Source: Clostridia bacterium
GTDB taxonomy: Bacteria; Bacillota; Clostridia; Christensenellales; CAG-138
DNA length: 64,000 nt
Assembly (NCBI GenBank): GCA_017538255.1
Contig: JAFYJD010000025.1
Location: forward strand, 131,573 to 195,572
Direction: 5' to 3'
The position numbers and the translations under genes were made by a program. Below are positions 24,668 through 32,862 of this stretch, in pieces. The notes under the pieces were generated by a model. It was not told where the DNA came from. It made no database searches and was given only the letters and a program-made list of their open reading frames with translations. Within the stretch, counting starts at the first letter, position 1. Each line of letters begins with the position of its first letter.

Positions 24668-25020
24668 GGGGGCGTACATGGTTTCGACGGGGATCGTGGA
24701 TGCCGGATAAGCGAGCCGAAGCCCCGTGCTTCGTTAAAAACGGGAAACTCTTAAAAATAACCGACGAATATAACTTCGTACCCGTCGCCGCTTAATCGGC
24801 GACCGTCCGCCCGCAGTTGCCCACGACTGCGGATACGGGCGTCATTAAAGTGGGGAACCAGCCGCGGCCTGTTCCGACCGCGGTGGGATCAAGGGACTAC
24901 CGAAAGCGCGATCCTGTCGGCAGGAGCGTGAAATAGGGAATGCTAAAATACCGACTACGCTCGTAGAAAGTCTTGTAGACAGTTTTTCGGACAGGGGTTC
25001 GATTCCCCTCGCCTCCACCA
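24668..25020 (+). ncRNA. ssrA: tmRNA (SsrA), 353 nt including CCA
   Basis: The 5' end GGGGGCGTACATGGTTTCGACGGGG pairs with the 3' end ...GGGGTTCGATTCCCCTCGCCTCCACCA (G3:U wobble). The in-frame tag ends ...DEYNFVPVAA-TAA (stop at 24793-24795). The resume codon is not certain. Confidence 0.95.
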
Positions 25021-25024
25021 ATGC

Positions 25025-25050
25025 AAAAAGGAGCATCTGTGCTCTTTTTT
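25025..25050 (+). terminator. intrinsic terminator after ssrA
   Basis: Stem gagca/tgctc, extended by A/T pairs (aaaaaggagca tctg tgctcttttt), ending in T6. Confidence 0.6.
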
Positions 25051-25193
25051 GTAATTGATCCTATGGAGGAATCGAACGCCCGAAGCGTCCGTCCGGTGGA
25101 CGAAACAGACGCTGAGGGTCGGAATTATCGGCATAGGCGATTTGCAAAGTTATTTGATTGTTTTGTGCAACAAATCCAAAGGACAGTTATCAT

Positions 25194-26576
25194 ATGAGCA
25201 GACTAATTGTATCTTTTACGTCATTTCCCGCCAGAATTGATTCGGTAAAGACGGTTCTCGACAGTTTATATCAGCAGACGCTGCAGGCCGATGAGATCAT
25301 CCTGTGGCTTGCGGAAGAACAGTTTCCAAACGGAGAAGCCGATCTGCCGCTCCCGTTGCGTGAGGATTTGGAGGCAAAAAGATTCACTCTCCGTTGGTGT
25401 GATGATCTCGGATCTCACAAGAAGTATTTCTATGCCATGCAGGAATATCCCGAGGATATTATTGTAACTGTTGATGATGATACTTATTATCATCCCGATA
25501 CGCTGCAAACGCTTATGGAAACGCATACCCGTTTCCCTCGCGCCGTTGTGGCAAAGACCGCTTCGCTTGTTCTTTTTGATCCCGCACTTTGTCCCCTTCC
25601 TATAAGCGAGTGGCTCTTTGATTTCCAACTCCTTACAGAACCGTCAATGCTCTTAATGTCAATAGGTGCCGGGGGCGTTCTTTATCCGCCTCATTCTGTC
25701 AGCAAAAAGATCTTTGACAAGTCATTTATACTTGAAATGTGTACTGCAAACGGAATGATATGCGGCGACGATCTGCTGCTTAAAGCGGGCGAGATGCTTA
25801 ATAGAACGCCGGTAGCAACAGCGAAAAGCAAACCATATTATAACTTGCCAAACACGTCTGGAACTGCTCTTGCTAAGTTAATGCCAAAAGAGATTCACAA
25901 GGACCTGCTTATTCTGATGTATCAAGAAAAATTTCAGGATGCTTTTGATAATGAATCCGCACAGCGTCTGAAAACCGCAGTATCAGATTTTGACAAAATG
26001 GACAACAAGTATGGGCTGCGAAAAAAATATTGGCTATCAAGACCTTTGCGGGACTTTGAAAGGCAGTTTGCGTATCTTATACGGCACGATGCGCCAACCA
26101 AACCCGATACATTTGATTATAAACGAATCCAAAACGTCGCATCGTTTGCGGCAAAAGTCTTTACCGCTTATCCGCCCGCCTGTGATGATCTTGATGACGA
26201 GGCCGCAAAGGCGCTTAGTGCTTTTCGGAAGAAACTGCTCGATATTCCGGGTATCGCGGAGTTTGCCAAGACGGACGCTGTTATAAAAGGATTTGTTGAT
26301 TACGGTGTGGCGCTAAACAAGGTGTGCATAATCAGTTTTCATAGCATCAATATCTATATGCAGAGTTTGAAAAACTGGCAATCATTTATGTCGGCCAATC
26401 CGGAGTGCGATCCGATTCTCCGCAAAGGATATGAGGACTTCCTTGCCGACACCAAGTTCCAAATAGGCAGAGCCAACTCCATTTTATCAAAAGCCGAAAT
26501 ATATGAATGGATGCTGGCATACGCAGATGCCTTGAATGATTATAAGAAATTGCAGATGAAGATCAGCCGTGAATAG
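25194..26576 (+). CDS. putative GT-A-fold glycosyltransferase with a helical C-terminal domain
   Basis: Track ORF trimmed to MSRLIVSFTSFPARI at 25194. DXD-like TVDDDTYYHPD. The region looks more AT-rich than its neighbours by eye. Confidence 0.55.
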   Translation: MSRLIVSFTSFPARIDSVKTVLDSLYQQTLQADEIILWLAEEQFPNGEADLPLPLREDLEAKRFTLRWCDDLGSHKKYFYAMQEYPEDIIVTVDDDTYYHPDTLQTLMETHTRFPRAVVAKTASLVLFDPALCPLPISEWLFDFQLLTEPSMLLMSIGAGGVLYPPHSVSKKIFDKSFILEMCTANGMICGDDLLLKAGEMLNRTPVATAKSKPYYNLPNTSGTALAKLMPKEIHKDLLILMYQEKFQDAFDNESAQRLKTAVSDFDKMDNKYGLRKKYWLSRPLRDFERQFAYLIRHDAPTKPDTFDYKRIQNVASFAAKVFTAYPPACDDLDDEAAKALSAFRKKLLDIPGIAEFAKTDAVIKGFVDYGVALNKVCIISFHSINIYMQSLKNWQSFMSANPECDPILRKGYEDFLADTKFQIGRANSILSKAEIYEWMLAYADALNDYKKLQMKISRE

Positions 26577-26637
26577 GCATATCAAAAGAATATGCTCATT
26601 GGTAAAAAGGTTTTGCGCGTGTCATCGGCAGTCGCAC

Positions 26638-26666
26638 TTGACAGGCGCAGCGCGGATGTGTATAAT
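26638..26666 (+). promoter_or_regulatory. consensus sigma-A promoter
   Basis: TTGACA-17 nt-TATAAT, 48 nt upstream of ATG 26714. Confidence 0.6.
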
Positions 26667-26713
26667 CAGAGCGTGCAAAGTTTTGTTCAACTAATAAAAA
26701 AACGAGGTTAAAT

Positions 26714-27289
26714 ATGCTGCTGACAGGACATACTTTTGATAAAAACGGCGCCCCTCTCGGCGGCGTTGACGTAGAGATCAAGGACGAAAGCTTTCAAACC
26801 GTTTATAAAACGCAAAGCGACGGATCGGGTTTTTATTCGCTGGAAGTGCCCGACGGTCGCTATCCGTTTTTGATGGCAGTGCGCGATTACGGCACCCGTT
26901 ATCTTGAATACTGGTGCAACGATATCGATCTGACGCAGGACAGGGAACTTGATATTCGCATAGATTCGCTCGAGGTTTACGGGCTGAATGTTTTCCGCGT
27001 CAAAGGCGCCTACCCCGCTCTCACCGTCTATTTCCGCCCTATGAGCCTCATCAAGTTCCACCGCGGCGAAACGGATATCTGCCCGGACATCAAGCGCATC
27101 CGTGTTTGTGTCAACGGCGAGGAAGTGCCCGTGCTGATTGAAAACAAGGTGTCCGAGTTCATCGGCGAAGGTAGTCTTTACGCATATCTCATCCAGGTCG
27201 GTCTGCCGTCCACCGGCAAATGGGAGCGGCTTGATGTTGAGATCTTTGATTCCGAGGACGCATACGGCGCGGCGAGCATCTTTTATTGA
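26714..27289 (+). CDS. hypothetical protein with an N-terminal carboxypeptidase-regulatory-like (beta-sandwich) domain
   Basis: LTGHTFDKNGAPLGGVDVEIKDESFQTVYKTQSDGSGFYSLEVPDGRY matches the CarboxypepD_reg pattern. GAGG RBS. Confidence 0.6.
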   Translation: MLLTGHTFDKNGAPLGGVDVEIKDESFQTVYKTQSDGSGFYSLEVPDGRYPFLMAVRDYGTRYLEYWCNDIDLTQDRELDIRIDSLEVYGLNVFRVKGAYPALTVYFRPMSLIKFHRGETDICPDIKRIRVCVNGEEVPVLIENKVSEFIGEGSLYAYLIQVGLPSTGKWERLDVEIFDSEDAYGAASIFY

Positions 27290-27300
27290 TATAAAACCGA

Positions 27301-27343
27301 AAGCGCGGTGAAAGCAAAAACTTTCTCCGCGCTTATTTTTTAT
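27301..27343 (+). terminator. intrinsic terminator
   Basis: Stem aagcgcgg/ccgcgctt with inner gaaag/ctttc pairing, followed by ATTTTTTAT. Confidence 0.7.
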
Positions 27344-27391
27344 ATCGCTCTTTATATGCCGCGCCTTTATATCCGGATGCCCAATACCGTT

Positions 27392-28774
27392 TTACGTATC
27401 CACATGGATATGCACGCGCCGCAGCGGAACATCGAGTATGTGCAGCACGAGTTCATTTGAATAAACGTCGACACGCTTTATAATGATATCGAGGAAATAC
27501 TGTTTTTCGAGCCGTGTCAGATCATTGAAGTCCTTGAGATGATCGAAGAGCGCCGCGACCGAGTCTGCACTTTGCGAATAGAGTTCACATAGATACTCGA
27601 TGTATTCCTTTTCGATCCAACGCAGCATCAAACCGCCCTTCAATTTTTCCATACGCTCCATAGAGCGCATATTCGGCGTTTCCGTCGAAGTCAAAAATGC
27701 CTCGTGGACTTCGTTTTCTTGTATCCTCAGTTCTTCCTTTAGTACATCGAGCGCGGATCTCACTCTTGATGCTTCTGTTTTTGCGCGGATAAGGCAGGCT
27801 CGTTTCAGTTCATCAATGCCGCCAAGATAGTTTTTGACTATGAACTCCGTCGCCGCGCGTTCGACAGAAAGCGCAAATAGGCGCTTGCCGCTCGAAGTAT
27901 AATACGGCAGTCTATTTCCATGCTCCTCATACGCTCTTTGCATTCTTTTGCCGTCGCAATAGACCCTCGTTATAAGAAAGTGCGGCTCTAAGTCCTCTTC
28001 ACCGCTCCGTTTTTTAAGAAGCGCGGACGCCTTCAGCCAAGTGCCGAGCCCGACGAGCGCGGGTTCTTCGCCGCCGTCCTCACCGAATACGCCGATATAG
28101 CGCGGGCTCTTTATCATTGAATAGAGTTGATTTCGCGATATCCTTTTGGCTTTCGGATACAGTTGTTCAAGCCGTTCCGCGATCTTTGCCGGCATAAGAC
28201 CCTGTGCAAAGAGTTCGAATGCGCTGCCGACAAGCGCGCCGTCCGCTGGATCGCGCGCTATTATCCCGCACTCGCGCTTATAACCCGTCGGCAGTTTGCC
28301 GCCGCTTTTTATGCCCAAACCGTTTTTGTTGATGATGCGCGCAAATCTTGGCGGATGCTTTCCGACTGAGTTGTATTCAAGCACGGCTTTCATAATTTCG
28401 TCCTCGGGAGCACGCTTTATACAGCCCGCTATGAAAACTGGTCTTATTCCCATCGCTTTGAGATAGTGCTTCATTGCCTCCGGAGTCGCTTCTTCAAAGC
28501 GCAGACAGTCGGGATTCGGCATAACAAGCGTTATCGCCCGCCCGCGCAGAAGCTTAAAAAGCGCAAACAACGTGAGCGGCGCTCCGTCGTCGCGGTCGTA
28601 AAGCACGCTCGAAATATTGAAACCGAGCCTGTTTGCATATAAGATCAGTTCCTTTTCGAGTGCGTCCGCCTGCGTTTTGTTCGCTGCGCGAAAATAGGCA
28701 ATTGCGTCTTTAAGCAAATGCTTTTCTTCGCCAGAGGAGCGCTCCTGCTCGGTTTTGTCCGGATTGACTTGCAT
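27392..28774 (-). CDS. large-serine-recombinase homologue lacking the catalytic serine and the zinc-ribbon cysteines
   Basis: Resolvase-like N-terminus AIAYFRAANKTQ, where YxRVSTxxQ is expected. Recombinase-domain pattern PTGYKRECG..LVGSAFELFAQG..KIAERL..LYSMIKSPRYIG. Coiled coil, then a C-terminal LEKQYFLDIIIKRVDVY. Confidence 0.65.
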   Translation of the reverse strand: MQVNPDKTEQERSSGEEKHLLKDAIAYFRAANKTQADALEKELILYANRLGFNISSVLYDRDDGAPLTLFALFKLLRGRAITLVMPNPDCLRFEEATPEAMKHYLKAMGIRPVFIAGCIKRAPEDEIMKAVLEYNSVGKHPPRFARIINKNGLGIKSGGKLPTGYKRECGIIARDPADGALVGSAFELFAQGLMPAKIAERLEQLYPKAKRISRNQLYSMIKSPRYIGVFGEDGGEEPALVGLGTWLKASALLKKRSGEEDLEPHFLITRVYCDGKRMQRAYEEHGNRLPYYTSSGKRLFALSVERAATEFIVKNYLGGIDELKRACLIRAKTEASRVRSALDVLKEELRIQENEVHEAFLTSTETPNMRSMERMEKLKGGLMLRWIEKEYIEYLCELYSQSADSVAALFDHLKDFNDLTRLEKQYFLDIIIKRVDVYSNELVLHILDVPLRRVHIHVDT

Positions 28775-28897
28775 AATCTGCCCCTATCCCATACTCTATC
28801 ACTTTTTTATTCTATCGCATTATTCAAAAAAATCAAGTTATGTTTTGCTGTATTTGGCACGTTTTTGGCAATAAAGCGTAAAGTTTGTTGGCATTTG

Positions 28898-28926
28898 TCA
28901 TATTTTGTGATGCTCCGAAATAAACT
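28898..28926 (+). promoter_or_regulatory. possible sigma-E-type sporulation promoter upstream of sigK
   Basis: TCATATT-14 nt-AATAAACT, compared with the Bacillus sigma-E consensus as I recall it (-35 ATA-containing heptamer, 14-nt spacer, -10 CATACAHT). The -10 matches at 6 of 8 positions. Confidence 0.3.
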
Positions 28927-28959
28927 CAGATAAACAAAAACAGTATTCAAGGGGGTTTT

Positions 28960-29652
28960 ATGTTCGGCGCCGTATTTGAGTTTTTTAGGAGCATATTCCT
29001 ATTCGTCGGAATGGTTTCGCACAAGAACAGTTTTCCGCCAACGCTTTCCGCCGACGAAGAGCGCGCGCTCGTTAATCGGCATATTGACGGCGACAGGCAG
29101 GCGCGGGATCTGTTGATCGAGCACAATCTGCGGCTGGTTGCGCATATCGCGAAAAAGTACGCAACGCCCACAAGGAGCATCGACGACCTTATCTCCATTG
29201 GCACGATCGGGCTCATTAAGGCCGTTGAAACGCTTGATCCCGACAAATGCCGCTCCGTCGCCGGCTATGCTTCACGGTGCATCGAAAATGAGATACTTAT
29301 GTATATACGCTCGGACAAAAAGCACGCGCGCGAGGTGTCGCTTGAAGAATCGGTCGGCATAGACCGCGACGGTAACGAGATCACGCTCTCCGACATACTG
29401 CCGAGCGAAGACGGCTCCGTGCTTGACAAAGCGATCGTCAACTCAAACAGCAGGCTTATACGCGAAACGATCAGCAAAAAACTGACCGAGCGCGAGCGCA
29501 GGGTCGTCATCCTTCGCTACGGGCTTATCGACGGCAGATGCTATCCCCAACGCGAAGTCGGCAAGATGCTCGGCATATCACGATCATATGTGTCAAGGAT
29601 CGAGAAAAAGGCGCTTGATAAACTAAACTCCTGTATGACTGGCAGGATATAA
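28960..29652 (+). CDS. sigK: sporulation sigma factor SigK (pro-sigma-K, uninterrupted)
   Basis: Hydrophobic pro-sequence ending ...SHKNSFPPTLSADEE, then IEHNLRLVAHIAKKY, DLISIGTIGLIKAV, CIENEILMYIR and ISRSYVSRIEKKAL. It stands alone, not in a spoIIGA-sigE-sigG context. Confidence 0.85.
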   Translation: MFGAVFEFFRSIFLFVGMVSHKNSFPPTLSADEERALVNRHIDGDRQARDLLIEHNLRLVAHIAKKYATPTRSIDDLISIGTIGLIKAVETLDPDKCRSVAGYASRCIENEILMYIRSDKKHAREVSLEESVGIDRDGNEITLSDILPSEDGSVLDKAIVNSNSRLIRETISKKLTERERRVVILRYGLIDGRCYPQREVGKMLGISRSYVSRIEKKALDKLNSCMTGRI

Positions 29653-29693: not shown

Positions 29694-31679
29694 TCAATAT
29701 CTTTCGTGCTGATTGCGGCCGCCGGGGACGAATCCGTCCTTTTCGTATTTATCGGTCATATCCTTGACCTTTTGGATGAACTCCTCGTTGGTCTTGGTGC
29801 GGTAGAACATATTGAGCACCTGCTCCGTCGCGTCGGTCGTATTGCCGCCCGAGAGCATTCGCCTTATAGTATCCACACATTCACGCTCATCCTCCGTCAG
29901 GAGAAGTTCGTCGCGGCGCGTGCCGGATTTGTAGATATCCACCGCCGGGAATATGCGCTTTTCGGAGAGTTTGCGGTCGAGGTGTATCTCCATATTGCCC
30001 GTGCCCTTGAACTCTTCGTAGACCATATCGTCCATCCTGGAGCCCGTTTCCACAAGTGCGGTCGCAATAACGGTCAGGCTGCCGCCGTTTTCTATGTTTC
30101 TTGCCGCGCCGAAGAAGCGTTTGGGCTTATGGAGCGCACCCGGGTCCATACCTCCCGAGAGCGTTTTGCCGGTTGAGTTTATCGTGAGGTTGTAGGCGCG
30201 CGCGAGCCTTGTTATCGAGTCCATAAGCACTACAACATCCTTGCCGAGTTCAACAAGGCGCATCGCCCTTTCAAGTACCATCTCGGCAACGCGGGTATGG
30301 TGGTCGGGCAATTCGTCGAAGGTCGAATACACGACTTCGCCCTTTATTGAGCGCTGCATATCGGTAACTTCCTCGGGTCTTTCGTCAATAAGGAGCACGA
30401 TAAGATGCACGTCGGGATGGTTTTCGCTGATGCCGTTTGCTATCGACTTGAGCAGAGTGGTCTTGCCCGCCTTTGGCTGGGAAACGATCATACCGCGCTG
30501 ACCTTTGCCGATCGGCGCGATAAGGTCTATAAGCCTGATCGCAAGATTGCTCTTTGCGTCCGCACCGGCGGTCTCGAGCGTCAGCCGCTCGTTCGGGAAG
30601 ATGGGAACAAGATCCTCAAACGATTTGCGCTGAACGGTCTCATCCGGCGGCATACCGTTGATCGCGGTGATGTACATCAGGGCGACATAGCGTTTGTTTT
30701 CAAGCGTTTGCCTTGTTTTTCCTGCGACCAGGTCGCCGTTGCGAAGACTGAAGCGGCGTATCTGCGAATTGGATATGTAAACATCGTTTGCGCCTTGGAT
30801 ATAGTTTTCTCTGCGAAGAAAACCGTAGCCGTCCGGCATTATCTCGAGCACGCCCTCCGCGTCCTCGCATTCGCCCGATTCGAGTATCTCGGGAACGGCG
30901 GGGTTGCTCGTTCCGTACTCGGCGTTATAATACTGCTCCCTGTACACGCCTTGATTATAGCCGTTTTGCGGCGGCATCTGATTCGTATTGTGATAGGGCT
31001 GATACCCTTGCTGTATGGGCATCTGGCGATAATCCTGCTGCTGATACGTGTCCTGCTGATAGGCGGCGTACGGTTCGCTCTGACGCTGTCTGTACGCGTC
31101 CTGGCGGTATTCCTGATACTGGTATTGGTTTTGGCGGGGCTGAGTTCTGCCGTTTCTGATCTGCTTATTATAAGCGTTCTGCTGTTTGTAGGCGTTTTGA
31201 CCTTGGCTCTGGCCTTGGCGCTGTTGATACTGCTGCTGATACGCGGGCCTTTCCTGTTGATACTGGCGGGATTTTTGCTGATAATCGCCCACAGCGGGCT
31301 GGGAATAGCCGAATCGTCTGCCCGAGTAGTTCATACCCATCTGCTCCATGCCGATATCCGGCTCATCTATTTCATCCATCGGCGGGAACATATCCTCGTC
31401 GTCATAATCGGGCATACCGGTCTGCGGCGCGTCCATAACTTTTGACGGCCCGCCGTCCACAGCCGAACCGGGCTCCGCATTGACGGGGCTTTTCTTTTCG
31501 GGTTTTGCGGGCGCGTCTGAAGCAGGCTCCAAACCGCGTTTTGCCGCGTTTTGACCGCCGTTCATAATGATGTCAACGAGTTCGCTCTTTCTGTACTTTG
31601 TGATCGATTTTACGCCCTGCGCCTTTGCTATCGTCCTTAAACTTTCAAGACTTTTGCCGAGCATTTCTTCACGCGTCAT
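29694..31679 (-). CDS. rho: transcription termination factor Rho with a long N-terminal low-complexity insertion
   Basis: Rho_N-like [31 protein letters not shown]-binding GYGFLR, Walker [10 protein letters not shown], and a C-terminal [11 protein letters not shown]. Start set at ATG 31679 (GGAG 6 nt upstream). The track start at 31691 is an alternative. Confidence 0.92.
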
Positions 31680-32036
31680 AAAAAACTCCATTCATATAGA
31701 TGTCAATGACAGAATAATACCAATGCTATGCGGGACTAAATAATACTATGCATTGTTGAAAAATTAATGATTCCCTAATATTTTAGTGGATGATCCGAAT
31801 CAATTTCGATAGTATTATACCTTGTCTTCTCGCTTTTGTCAACTTCGATTTTTCTGTATTTATACGCTTTTTTGTTGGTTTTCCAAAATATTTCCCGGGA
31901 ATAAGGCGCGTCTGCTCTTTGGTCGTACAAAATCGTTCGTTTACAAATCTGGCGCTGCGCGATCAACTTCTGTGATATGTCGAAACTGCAATTTGGGCAA
32001 TCGCGAATATTTATATGCTTTATCTGCGGAACCGGG

Positions 32037-32079: not shown

Positions 32080-32862
32080 TTATTCGACTACCCTGCCGAC
32101 TACTCGGAACTCAGCGTTTTCGCCGATCTTTATCGGCGGGTATTTTTTGTTGAGCGATATAAGTTTTATGCCGTGCTCGGTGTCGAGTTTTTTGCAGTAT
32201 GCCTCGCCGTTGAGAAGGAATATCCCGATCTCTCCCGATTGGAGTTCCTGCTGCTGGCGCACGTAGACGATCTGCCCGTCCGAAAATGCAGGCGTCATAG
32301 AATCGCCGCTGAGCCTGACCGCAAAGGTCGCCGTTTCGGGGACGGTAGCGTCCGCGTCTATCATGGTATATGCATCGCCGTCAAGAAAAACGCCCGTGCC
32401 TGCGGATGCCGGCAGGTCGTAAAGCGGTATCTGCCGAATGCGCTTTACCTCACGCACTCGATGGGAGAAATATGCGTTTTCGTTAAGCATAGCGATGTAT
32501 TCGTTCGCCCTTTCCCTGCCGAGTTTGTTGAGTCCCGCAAACGGATCGGAACCGCTCTCGATACCGCGGAAAGTTTTGAGTACGTCGGTTATGCCGAGTA
32601 TGCGGCAGAGGCTGATGAACTGGATCGCGTCCGGCAGGCTGTCGCCGTTCTCCCATTTGCTGACGGCGCGGTCGGTTATCGTGCTTTTGCCCCAGCGTTC
32701 GCAATCGCGGCTGATCGCCTCGGCTATCTGTTTTTGTTTCAGTTTTTTTTCGGCGCGAAGCACCGCAAGTTTTTCTCCGAACGAAAGTTCGTTGAAATCG
32801 CGTTCCGCGCGGTCGCTCTTTTTGGTTTTGGAAGTTTTGACCTTATCCGTATCAATTATCAC
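32080..32862 (-). CDS. XRE-family HTH repressor fused to an S24 LexA/cI-like autopeptidase domain
   Basis: HTH (KQKQIAEAISRD...AVSKWENG). The C-terminal SGDSMTP serine motif and a later Lys (CKKL) are typical of S24 peptidases. GTG start preceded by GGGGAGGG. Confidence 0.8.
   Translation of the reverse strand: MIIDTDKVKTSKTKKSDRAERDFNELSFGEKLAVLRAEKKLKQKQIAEAISRDCERWGKSTITDRAVSKWENGDSLPDAIQFISLCRILGITDVLKTFRGIESGSDPFAGLNKLGRERANEYIAMLNENAYFSHRVREVKRIRQIPLYDLPASAGTGVFLDGDAYTMIDADATVPETATFAVRLSGDSMTPAFSDGQIVYVRQQQELQSGEIGIFLLNGEAYCKKLDTEHGIKLISLNKKYPPIKIGENAEFRVVGRVVE

What the first reader, a model, noticed from the sequence alone, without database searches (positions are those of the whole stretch)
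27392..28774. Large serine recombinase homologue without its nucleophile, divergent from an intact sigK
The 460-aa protein has the full large-serine-recombinase architecture: a resolvase-like N-domain, a recombinase domain, a coiled coil and a C-terminal ...IIKRVDVY tail.

Two key features are altered.
- The catalytic motif reads AYFRAANKTQ instead of Y-x-R-V-S-T-x-x-Q. The predicted nucleophile is Ala31, encoded at 28682-28684.
- The zinc-ribbon region retains a single Cys (VYCDGKRMQ).

The ORF is nevertheless intact and sits 185 nt from sigK. In Bacillus subtilis and Clostridioides difficile, sigK is the gene split by a skin element that is excised by exactly this enzyme class (SpoIVCA). Here sigK is contiguous.

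Possible explanations are a domesticated DNA-binding pseudo-recombinase, the relic of a former skin-like element, or a regulator of the adjacent genes.
Basis: partly seen in the sequence, partly recalled or inferred. Interest (0 to 1): 0.6.

Follow-up and report, generated by a model that had tools for sequence, protein, structure and literature searches.

The report
Dead serine integrase kept as host gene
The gene next to sigK encodes a protein built like a phage DNA-integrating enzyme that has lost everything needed to cut DNA; a small group of gut Clostridia keeps it under selection as an ordinary host gene, and its position beside sigK comes from genome rearrangement, not from a former sigK-splitting element.

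Summary
The ORF at 27392-28774 (-) encodes a 460-aa protein that is colinear with large serine recombinases (LSRs) from end to end (hhalign probability 100%, E 3.7e-43). Foldseek's best matches are LSR structures. Ala31 occupies the nucleophile position, both catalytic arginines of the D-R-x-x-R motif are gone, and only one of four zinc cysteines remains. sigK lies 185 nt away and is intact.

The gene is one member of an unannotated family found in three genera of one Clostridia family. Every member lacks a complete active site and the zinc site. There is one copy per genome, every copy examined here reads as an intact ORF, and dN/dS is 0.16-0.29 in close pairs. The central "recombinase" DNA-binding domain is as conserved as in active LSRs, while the catalytic and zinc domains have drifted.

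The ancestral location is downstream of a DUF885 lipoprotein gene. One clade moved the gene into a Spo0A_C-paralogue/amidohydrolase operon that sits beside sigK. In this genome those two genes left, which placed the gene directly against sigK. No relative carries a split sigK.

Verdict: a domesticated, non-catalytic LSR derivative that probably binds DNA. It is neither a skin relic nor a demonstrated sigK regulator.

The parts
27392..28774 (-). REC: 460-aa catalytically dead large-serine-recombinase homologue (P0001)
   Evidence: ORF. hhalign against LSRs gives probability 100%, E 3.7e-43. AF2 model with pLDDT 84. Foldseek hits to LSR structures.
28364..28714 (-). Degenerate resolvase-like N-domain plus shortened helix E (residues 21-137). 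Active-site residues are replaced: Ala31, Cys90, Phe93.
   Evidence: Alignments. Foldseek matches to small serine-recombinase catalytic domains 3lhk, 5cy2 and 3pkz. Domain identity within the family is 21%, against 53% among LSRs.
28682..28684 (-). Codon of Ala31 (GCG), at the position of the serine nucleophile
   Evidence: Sequence read directly. Three independent alignments agree.
28001..28297 (-). Recombinase domain (residues 160-258), the best conserved part. It keeps the LSR motifs P-x-G-Y, N-x-R-Y-x-G and the conserved Pro238.
   Evidence: PF07508 hit. Conserved columns and per-domain identity: family 29.7%, LSRs 30.2%. Net charge +3.2 in both groups.
27875..28000 (-). Remnant of the zinc-ribbon domain (residues 259-300). 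One of four Cys is left, and the domain is shortened and no longer basic.
   Evidence: Mean net charge is +1.2 in the family and +10.6 in LSRs.
27578..27874 (-). Coiled-coil hairpin (residues 301-399)
   Evidence: AF2 secondary structure shows helices 301-361 and 369-399. The segment is colinear with the LSR coiled coil.
27395..27577 (-). C-terminal domain (residues 400-460) with the ...YFLDIIIKRVDVY... tail shared with the nearest LSRs
   Evidence: Glu423 is nearly invariant in the family.
28775..28959 (.). 185-nt divergent intergenic region.
- A sigma-70-like promoter match for REC (TTGATT-16-TAGAAT, 28836-28809, minus strand).
- A CATATTTT element at 28899-28906, resembling the CATA-type element found upstream of sigK in congeners.
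   Evidence: Consensus scan and comparison of sigK upstream regions. These are motif matches only, not shown to function.
28960..29652 (+). Intact sigK (230 aa, with a pro-sequence-like N-terminus)
   Evidence: NF004471 277 bits against cutoff 252; TIGR02846 276.8 bits. Orthologues in congeners are 55-65% identical and contiguous.
27296..27345 (.). GC-rich hairpin plus T-run between the convergent 191-aa gene and REC; a likely bidirectional terminator
   Evidence: Read from the sequence. The consensus scan did not list it, so this is inferred.

Best explanation
REC is a member of an undescribed family of domesticated large-serine-recombinase derivatives in one family of gut Clostridia.

Shown:
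- The protein keeps the whole LSR chain architecture.
- The family as a whole has lost the active site. The Arg68-equivalent is missing in 25 of 25 members, the Arg71-equivalent in 24 of 25, and the Ser nucleophile in 19 of 25.
- All zinc ligands and the basic character of the zinc ribbon are gone.
- The gene is single-copy and chromosomal, every copy examined here reads as an intact ORF, and it is under purifying selection.
- The recombinase domain is conserved exactly as strongly as in active enzymes.

Inferred:
- The protein cannot cut or rejoin DNA.
- It still binds DNA through the recombinase domain.
- It probably acts as a dimer held by the old N-domain, with the coiled coil available for protein-protein or bridging contacts.
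- Its role would therefore be a sequence-specific DNA-binding or architectural factor. The target is unknown.

History of the location:
- The ancestral site is immediately downstream of a DUF885 lipoprotein gene.
- One clade of the genus moved it behind a Spo0A_C-paralogue - amidohydrolase pair that lies divergent from sigK.
- In this genome that pair now lies about 30 kb away, which leaves REC head to head with sigK.
For: Homology and fold.

Family-wide loss of catalytic and zinc residues.

Family size and annotation:
- 58 hits among 1.84 billion representatives; 27 full-length hits were aligned with the query as the family.
- The only name given by a source is 'hypothetical protein'.
- No NCBIfam model matches.

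Distribution:
- Family members score above 190 bits, canonical LSRs below 160.
- Members occur in 14 of 16 genomes of the own genus and in two further genera, one copy each.

Selection:
- The ORFs examined are intact.
- dN/dS is 0.157 for L003/L004 and 0.288 for L010/L011, against 0.066 for neighbouring miaB.

Domain-specific constraint:
- Recombinase domain: 29.7% identity within the family, 30.2% among LSRs.
- N-domain: 21% against 53%.
- Zinc domain: 15% against 37%.
- Recombinase-domain charge is kept at +3.2, while zinc-domain charge falls from +10.6 to +1.2.

Phylogeny and synteny:
- The family is monophyletic (100/100), and the window's protein sits inside the miaB-site clade (100/99).
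- Gene orders are documented.
Against: - No experiment or expression data exist; no RNA run holds the gene.
- DNA binding is inferred only from conservation and charge of one domain. The second LSR DNA-binding domain (zinc ribbon) is clearly degraded, so affinity or specificity may be low.
- No conserved candidate binding site was found.
- Members are only 15-32% identical within a single genus, which shows weak overall constraint.
- Six members still carry a Ser at the nucleophile position, and two of them also keep the first Arg. Residual chemistry in those cannot be excluded by sequence alone.
Confidence: 0.7

Rival explanations
1. REC is a dedicated local regulator of sigK. It would bind the shared 185-nt divergent promoter region and modulate the timing of sigma-K synthesis, functionally replacing the control that skin excision gives in Bacillus subtilis and Clostridioides difficile.
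For: - The head-to-head arrangement has only 185 nt between the start codons.
- REC and sigK lie within 3 kb in three other genomes of the same clade: G013, G009 and the host of P0004.
- REC and sigK stayed together in this genome although both outer neighbours changed.
Against: - The ancestral and most common site (DUF885-REC) is unlinked to sigK in 18 examined genomes from three genera.
- In G010 the REC cluster and sigK lie on different large contigs.
- None of 80 sigK loci from other Bacillota carries a family member within 5 kb.
- A CATA-type -10-like element is present upstream of sigK whether or not REC is adjacent.
- Two congeners lack REC, and one of them (G003) has a clear sigK.
Confidence: 0.08
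2. REC is a decaying relic of the integrase of a former skin-like element or an ssrA-targeting island: a pseudogene in progress with no function.
For: - The catalytic residues and zinc site are lost.
- REC lies in a somewhat AT-richer stretch (44-50% GC against 51-61% in flanks) that begins right after the tmRNA gene, a classic island target.
- The protein diverges very fast.
Against: - Every copy examined here is an intact ORF.
- dN/dS is 0.16-0.29.
- The recombinase domain is conserved at the level seen in active LSRs.
- Positions are syntenic, with translational coupling to neighbours.
- There is no direct repeat of the ssrA 3' end and no other att-like repeat.
- The window's copy nests inside a vertically inherited clade.
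- No split sigK was found in the 38 relatives that gave a sigK match.
Confidence: 0.03
3. REC is a non-catalytic partner or decoy for active serine integrases of prophages and transposons. Through its retained N-domain and coiled coil it would form dead heteromers or occupy att-like sites, controlling or blocking integration and excision.
For: - The dimerisation-type N-domain fold and a full-length coiled coil are kept.
- Fast sequence turnover would fit co-evolution with mobile elements.
- Genomes with REC also carry canonical LSRs, including this one at G000:C26:41912-43429 beside type III restriction-modification-like genes.
Against: - No linkage of REC to any LSR or mobile element was seen in any genome.
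- dN/dS stays below 1.
- REC is present in genomes where no other LSR match was found, such as G011, G015 and G001.
- REC is only 12-25% identical per domain to the nearest LSRs, so specific heteromerisation is doubtful.
Confidence: 0.1
4. REC is still an active recombinase that uses unconventional chemistry, with another nucleophile and other activating residues.
For: - Tyr27 and Arg29 of the Y-x-R-x-S motif and Asp60 are retained.
- Some family members keep Ser at the nucleophile position.
Against: - No candidate nucleophile is conserved across the family.
- The Arg68 and Arg71 equivalents are absent throughout.
- The C-terminal half of helix E and the linker that place the active site on DNA are broken by Gly/Pro and are disordered in the model.
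- There are no repeats, no att sites and no invertible or excisable segment around the gene.
Confidence: 0.03

Closest known systems
Large serine recombinases / serine integrases (Listeria A118/LI integrase 4KIS, PhiC31 Int 9RAH, and clostridial transposon and prophage LSRs such as TnpX)
   Same: Same domain order and fold over the whole chain: resolvase-type N-domain, helix E, recombinase domain, beta-ribbon with an inserted coiled coil, and a C-terminal tail. Support: hhalign probability 100% and Foldseek probability 1.0. The recombinase-domain motifs are identical.
   Different: - There is no Ser nucleophile and no catalytic Arg pair.
- There are no zinc ligands and no basic zinc ribbon, and helix E is shortened.
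- The gene is not on a mobile element and has no att sites; it is single-copy and vertically inherited.
- PF00239 and PF13408 are not detected, whereas a canonical LSR scores 107 and 56 bits.
SpoIVCA, the skin-element recombinase that rejoins split sigK in Bacillus subtilis and Clostridioides difficile (PMC5025042 for C. difficile)
   Same: It belongs to the same enzyme superfamily, and a sigK gene lies nearby.
   Different: - SpoIVCA is catalytically active, lies inside an element that interrupts sigK, and works with a directionality factor.
- Here sigK is intact in this genome and in every relative that gave a sigK match.
- REC lies outside sigK, is inactive, and originally sat at a locus unrelated to sigK.
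Tn3 / gamma-delta resolvase acting as a repressor at res (established knowledge: resolvase bound at accessory sites represses tnpA/tnpR without catalysis)
   Same: This is a precedent for a serine-recombinase scaffold working as a sequence-specific DNA-binding and architectural protein at a divergent promoter without cutting.
   Different: Resolvase remains an active enzyme with a C-terminal helix-turn-helix. REC is a large-type derivative with no active site, and no binding site is known for it.
Other 'serine-less' LSR-like host genes noted earlier in this scan (Chloroflexota family beside a COG1579/DUF164 zinc-ribbon gene and rnpB; a family beside rimP). These are AI notes, unpublished and unchecked here.
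   Same: The same evolutionary pattern: an LSR architecture without catalytic residues, kept as a vertically inherited chromosomal gene.
   Different: The phylum, the gene partners (here DUF885, or amidohydrolase/Spo0A_C paralogue) and presumably the origin are different. No sequence comparison with those families was made here.

Membership tests
Large serine recombinase (active enzyme) | Resolvase-type catalytic domain with a Ser nucleophile in the Y-x-R-x-S motif | tested here: not met
   Ala31 aligns with the invariant Ser in phmmer, MAFFT and hhalign alignments. PF00239 is not detected. Only 6 of 25 family members have Ser at this position.
Large serine recombinase (active enzyme) | Catalytic arginines of the D-R-x-x-R motif (gamma-delta resolvase R68 and R71) | tested here: not met
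   These positions are Cys90 and Phe93 in REC. The Arg68-equivalent is absent in 25 of 25 members and the Arg71-equivalent in 24 of 25.
Large serine recombinase (active enzyme) | Recombinase domain (PF07508) | tested here: met
   24.3 bits against a cutoff of 21.1, residues 179-249. Conservation equals that among LSRs.
Large serine recombinase (active enzyme) | Four-Cys zinc ribbon (PF13408) | tested here: not met
   Only Cys274 is left and PF13408 is not detected. Mean domain charge is +1.2 in the family against +10.6 in LSRs.
Large serine recombinase (active enzyme) | Coiled-coil motif inserted in the zinc-ribbon domain | tested here: met
   The AF2 model has helices 301-361 and 369-399, colinear with the LSR coiled coil.
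Large serine recombinase (active enzyme) | Association with a mobile element bounded by att sites | tested here: not met
   No significant repeats flank the gene. Chromosomal positions are conserved across three genera. One weak hit was found among 50,697 phage records.
SpoIVCA / skin-element system | The recombinase is encoded inside an element that interrupts sigK | tested here: not met
   sigK is contiguous here and in all 38 related genomes with a sigK match, each a single full-length hit with no stops. REC lies upstream of sigK, outside it.
New 'REC' family of nucleophile-less LSR derivatives (defined here) | Full-length match to the family profile above 190 bits, clearly separated from canonical LSRs below 160 bits, and monophyly | tested here: met
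   The window protein scores 443.7 bits and the score distribution is bimodal. The family clade has 100/100 support, and the window protein sits in a sub-clade with 100/99 support.
Sequence-specific DNA-binding protein | Demonstrated binding to a defined DNA site | not testable with these tools
   Support is indirect only: the recombinase domain keeps its motifs and positive charge. No conserved site was found.

The most novel reading that the evidence does not exclude
An integrase scaffold has been exapted in a lineage of spore-forming gut Clostridia as a new type of sequence-specific DNA-binding or DNA-bridging factor. It would use the recombinase domain for site recognition and the coiled coil for synapsis-like bridging without cutting. 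In one clade it would have been wired into the sporulation control region, as the third gene of an operon headed by a receiver-less Spo0A_C paralogue divergent from sigK. In this genome it would act directly on the sigK promoter region.
Probability: 0.12. Interest if true: 0.75.

Novelty: new variant of a known kind. Interest (0 to 1): 0.45.

Why it matters
Serine integrases are studied almost only as mobile-element enzymes and genome-engineering tools. This family is small, well delimited and selectively maintained. It keeps the integrase's DNA-recognition domain and coiled coil but has discarded catalysis and the zinc ribbon. That makes it a natural experiment on what the scaffold can do without chemistry, and on which parts suffice for a cellular function. 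It is also a further case of a mobile-element protein domesticated by its host.

The result also removes a tempting but wrong inference, that any recombinase-like gene next to sigK is a skin remnant. The family is currently annotated at best as 'hypothetical protein', and the results here give a basis for annotating it.

Tried and rejected
- The word-indexed homologue search found only a 99%-identical fragment of the same gene. The exhaustive HMMER search was needed.
- The search for related loci with the family alignment failed because no conserved 7-10-column stretch exists.
None of the 80 sigK loci from other Bacillota had a family member within 5 kb.
- Population data were underpowered for dN/dS on the window's own allele. 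Two samples are identical. One strain has a single change in 958 nt of the gene body. Another contig has 6 synonymous and 5 non-synonymous changes, 10 of the 11 within codons 103-127. Close orthologue pairs from congeners were used instead.
- No RNA run holds the gene, so expression is unknown.
- The search for att-like or ssrA-derived repeats around the gene gave only chance-level short repeats. A perfect 12-nt inverted pair (27496-27507 and 28936-28947) has a back-of-envelope chance expectation of about 0.8 pairs in the region.
- A sigma-54-like TGGCACG-N4-TGGCA and three TTGGCA copies lie upstream of sigK. This was rejected as a conserved element because it is absent upstream of sigK in five congeners and is hit by a strain polymorphism.
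- Functional coupling with DUF885 was considered and judged unlikely to be physical. The DUF885 protein of this genome has a lipoprotein signal peptide, while REC has no signal peptide or hydrophobic N-terminus (sequence).
- The 'spo0A' next to the clade-A REC genes turned out to be a paralogue carrying only the Spo0A_C domain. A canonical Spo0A is encoded elsewhere.
Full report
**1. The observation**

The window holds an uninterrupted 460-codon ORF at 27392-28774 on the minus strand. A 230-codon sigma-factor gene starts 185 nt upstream on the other strand, at 28960-29652. The sigma factor is SigK: NF004471 gives 277 bits against a cutoff of 252, and TIGR02846 gives 276.8 bits. The gene is contiguous.

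By sequence alone the 460-aa protein (P0001, here called REC) is barely recognisable.
- Pfam finds only the Recombinase domain PF07508 (residues 179-249, 24.3 bits, cutoff 21.1).
- NCBIfam finds nothing.
- The weak best PDB sequence hit is the catalytic domain of a serine recombinase, ISC1926 TnpA. It already aligns AYFRAANKTQ with IYARVSSSDQ.

**2. A full-length large-serine-recombinase (LSR) homologue without an active site**

An exhaustive HMMER search of 1.84 billion representative proteins gave only 58 hits. Hits of about 430-520 aa aligned over their full length at 18-25% identity, and 27 of them were aligned with the query as alignment A1. Most of the weaker hits examined were canonical LSRs.

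A profile of the full-length hits (A1), compared with a profile of 16 of the canonical LSRs (A2), gives hhalign probability 100%, E 3.7e-43, and 435 colinear columns from the N-domain to the C-terminal tail.

Residue correspondences (LSR numbering is that of P0030, the first sequence of A2):

| LSR invariant | REC residue |
|---|---|
| Y9 | Tyr27 |
| R11 | Arg29 |
| S13 (nucleophile) | Ala31 |
| Q17 | Gln35 |
| D46 | Asp60 |
| R81 | Cys90 |
| R84 | Phe93 |

Of the four zinc cysteines, only the first (Cys274) has a counterpart. The Ala31 codon is GCG at 28682-28684, read directly.

An AlphaFold2 model built on the family alignment is confident (mean pLDDT 84, pTM 0.81). It shows an alpha/beta N-domain, a short helix E followed by a disordered linker, the recombinase domain, beta-hairpins, a helical hairpin of about 100 residues, and a C-terminal beta tail.

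Foldseek against the PDB returns serine integrases first: 9y66, 4kis (the Listeria LI integrase-DNA complex) and 9rah (PhiC31 integrase), all with probability 1.0. Small serine-recombinase catalytic domains follow for the N-domain. A canonical LSR from the same search scores 107, 62 and 56 bits on PF00239, PF07508 and PF13408, whereas REC reaches only PF07508.

**3. The defect is a family trait, and the family is under selection**

Across 25 family members taken from genomes:
- the equivalent of gamma-delta resolvase Arg68 is absent in all 25;
- the Arg71-equivalent is absent in 24;
- the nucleophile position holds Ser in only 6, otherwise A, G, N, E, T, C, D or F;
- no member has the zinc ligands.

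A search of 201 genomes of the same taxonomic family with the family profile gives a clean bimodal result. Family members score above 190 bits and canonical LSRs below 160. Members occur in 14 of 16 genomes of the window's genus and in two other genera, always as a single copy. The copies whose ORFs were examined are intact.

Members of one genus are only 15-32% identical to each other, although their MiaB and MutS proteins are about 80% identical. The two available close pairs still show purifying selection:

| Gene, pair | dN/dS | Changes (synonymous / non-synonymous) |
|---|---|---|
| REC, L003/L004 | 0.157 | 21.5 / 12.5 |
| REC, L010/L011 | 0.288 | 66.8 / 76.2 |
| miaB (flanking), L003/L004 | 0.066 | 47.0 / 12.0 |
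| amidohydrolase (flanking), L003/L004 | 0.24 | 15.0 / 12.0 |

The constraint is domain-specific:

| Domain | Identity within family | Identity among LSRs |
|---|---|---|
| Recombinase domain | 29.7% | 30.2% |
| N-domain | 21% | 53% |
| Helix E | 21% | 62% |
| Zinc-ribbon region | 15% | 37% |

Nearly all residues conserved in at least 75% of the family lie in the recombinase domain and are the same residues as in LSRs: P162, G164, Y165, F186, G192, Y226, G228, P238 and W246.

The recombinase domain keeps a mean net charge of +3.2, as in LSRs. The zinc region has fallen from +10.6 to +1.2 and is shorter.

Sources name these proteins at best 'hypothetical protein'. Two full-text literature searches found no description of such a family.

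**4. Where the gene sits, and why it is next to sigK here**

Gene orders around 26 family members fall into three classes.
- **Site B** is DUF885 lipoprotein gene -> REC, often with overlapping stop and start codons. In the own genus it is followed by recX and a biotin/lipoate ligase gene. It occurs in all examined genomes of the two sister genera and in eight genomes of the own genus.
- **Site A** is Spo0A_C-domain paralogue -> amidohydrolase -> REC -> miaB-mutS-mutL (gaps of 19-26 nt before REC in G013). It occurs in seven genomes.
  - In three of them (G013, G009 and the host of P0004), sigK lies divergently just upstream of the Spo0A_C paralogue.
  - In G010, sigK is elsewhere.
- **Site C** is the window: tmRNA gene, a GT2-like gene, a 191-aa CarboxypepD_reg-like gene, then REC head to head with sigK, then rho.

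A maximum-likelihood tree rooted on canonical LSRs recovers the family as one clade (100/100). The window's REC sits inside the site-A clade (100/99). Site-B sequences are basal and span all three genera.

In the window's genome both older sites are empty.
- DUF885 and recX are 140 nt apart.
- miaB is preceded by the PHP-phosphatase gene that flanks sigK in relatives.
- The Spo0A_C paralogue and amidohydrolase lie together about 30 kb upstream of REC on the same contig.

The simplest history is B -> A once, followed in this lineage by removal of the two intervening genes and loss of the outer neighbours. That leaves sigK and REC as a two-gene remnant.

Direct adjacency to sigK is therefore derived and unique to this genome. 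Every sigK match at E <= 1e-40, found in 38 of the 41 related genomes searched, is a single full-length frame without stops. None of 80 sigK loci from other Bacillota has a family member within 5 kb. No att-like repeats and no copy of the tmRNA 3' end flank REC.

The 'skin relic' idea is thus not supported. The 'regulator of sigK' idea is left without comparative support, although it is not excluded for this particular genome.

**5. Most likely mechanism**

Shown: the LSR fold is kept, the active site and zinc site are absent, and selection is concentrated on the recombinase domain.

Inferred from established knowledge of LSR structure (the LI integrase-attP complex 4KIS, where the recombinase and zinc-ribbon domains each contact DNA and the coiled coil mediates subunit contacts):
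- REC no longer cleaves DNA.
- It still recognises DNA through the recombinase domain.
- The remnant N-domain serves as an oligomerisation module, and the coiled coil is available for protein-protein or bridging contacts.

The target is unknown. The changing neighbours (DUF885/recX, Spo0A_C paralogue/amidohydrolase, sigK) argue for a trans-acting factor and against a strictly local one. The DUF885 partner is a predicted extracytoplasmic lipoprotein, so co-transcription there probably does not mean physical interaction.

My probability that REC is a domesticated non-catalytic host protein is about 0.7. Within that, DNA binding is perhaps even odds. The rivals are a local sigK regulator, a decoy or partner of active LSRs, a decaying relic, and cryptic activity. 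They are listed with their evidence in the rival explanations.

**6. Comparison with what is known, and novelty**

REC works from the scaffold of serine integrases but fails the defining tests of an active member: nucleophile, catalytic arginines, zinc ribbon and mobile-element context. It is not SpoIVCA-like in any functional sense.

Resolvase acting as a repressor at res is a conceptual precedent for non-catalytic use of the fold.

Earlier AI notes of this scan describe other serine-less LSR-like host genes in Chloroflexota and next to rimP. They suggest that such domestications recur. They concern other lineages and partners and were not tested here.

I rate this a new variant of a known kind, of moderate interest. 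The family is real, undescribed and experimentally tractable. The eye-catching link to sigK and skin does not hold.

**7. Limits**

- The organism is an uncultured gut Clostridia species (gut metagenome runs), and its name is withheld by the tools.
- No expression data exist.
- Selection on the window's own allele could not be measured.
- Promoter assignments in the intergenic region are motif matches only.

Noticed in passing
window 28854-28893: There are three TTGGCA copies within 40 nt upstream of sigK. The stretch 28855-28870 (TGGCACGTTTTTGGCA) resembles a sigma-54 -24/-12 element. It is not present upstream of sigK in five congeners, and a strain variant (28856 G>T) hits the GG.
   Followed up: partly
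window 28720-29088: In one gut-metagenome strain (run X6) the sigK-REC intergenic region and both gene starts carry 23 differences in 369 nt, while 958 nt of the REC body carry one. A second sample's contig (L102) has 10 of its 11 changed codons between REC codons 103 and 127. This mosaic pattern suggests recombination between diverged alleles.
   Followed up: partly
window 29694-31691 (-): Rho is 665 aa long. It carries an insertion of roughly 225 residues, rich in Q, N and Y (runs such as [21 protein letters not shown]), between its N-terminal helix bundle and the RNA-binding domain. The insertion is compositionally prion-like.
   Followed up: no
window 25021-27289: A lower-GC stretch (44-46%) begins directly after the tmRNA gene (24668-25020). 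It holds a 472-aa GT2-like gene and a 191-aa CarboxypepD_reg-like gene. A 13-nt inverted copy of the tmRNA T-arm lies at 25068-25080. No flanking direct repeat of the ssrA end was found.
   Followed up: partly
G000:C27:126488-128661 (about 3-5 kb upstream of the window start): A 283-aa protein has a clear Spo0A_C DNA-binding domain but no detectable receiver domain (TIGR02875 44.6 bits against a cutoff of 200). An amidohydrolase gene follows it. In congeners this pair heads the operon that contains REC and lies divergent from sigK.
   Followed up: partly
G000:C28:52759-53568 (outside the window): The canonical Spo0A of this genome reads ...FDVLITELVMPKIDG... at the position where, from memory of Bacillus subtilis Spo0A, the phospho-acceptor Asp is expected. 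It may therefore carry Glu at the phosphorylation site. No alignment was made here.
   Followed up: no
G000:C26:36209-43429 (outside the window): The genome's one canonical LSR has a complete YARYSS motif, DRFAR and a four-Cys ribbon. It lies next to genes that look like type III restriction-modification mod and res genes (judged from their sequences; no family search was run) and a 397-aa gene of unassigned function. This is probably a small mobile defence island.
   Followed up: no
window 32080-32862 (-): A 260-aa protein combines an N-terminal XRE-type HTH with a C-terminal LexA/UmuD-type S24 peptidase domain, giving weak matches to LexA and UmuD models. It looks like a phage-repressor-type or atypical LexA-like regulator.
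   Followed up: no
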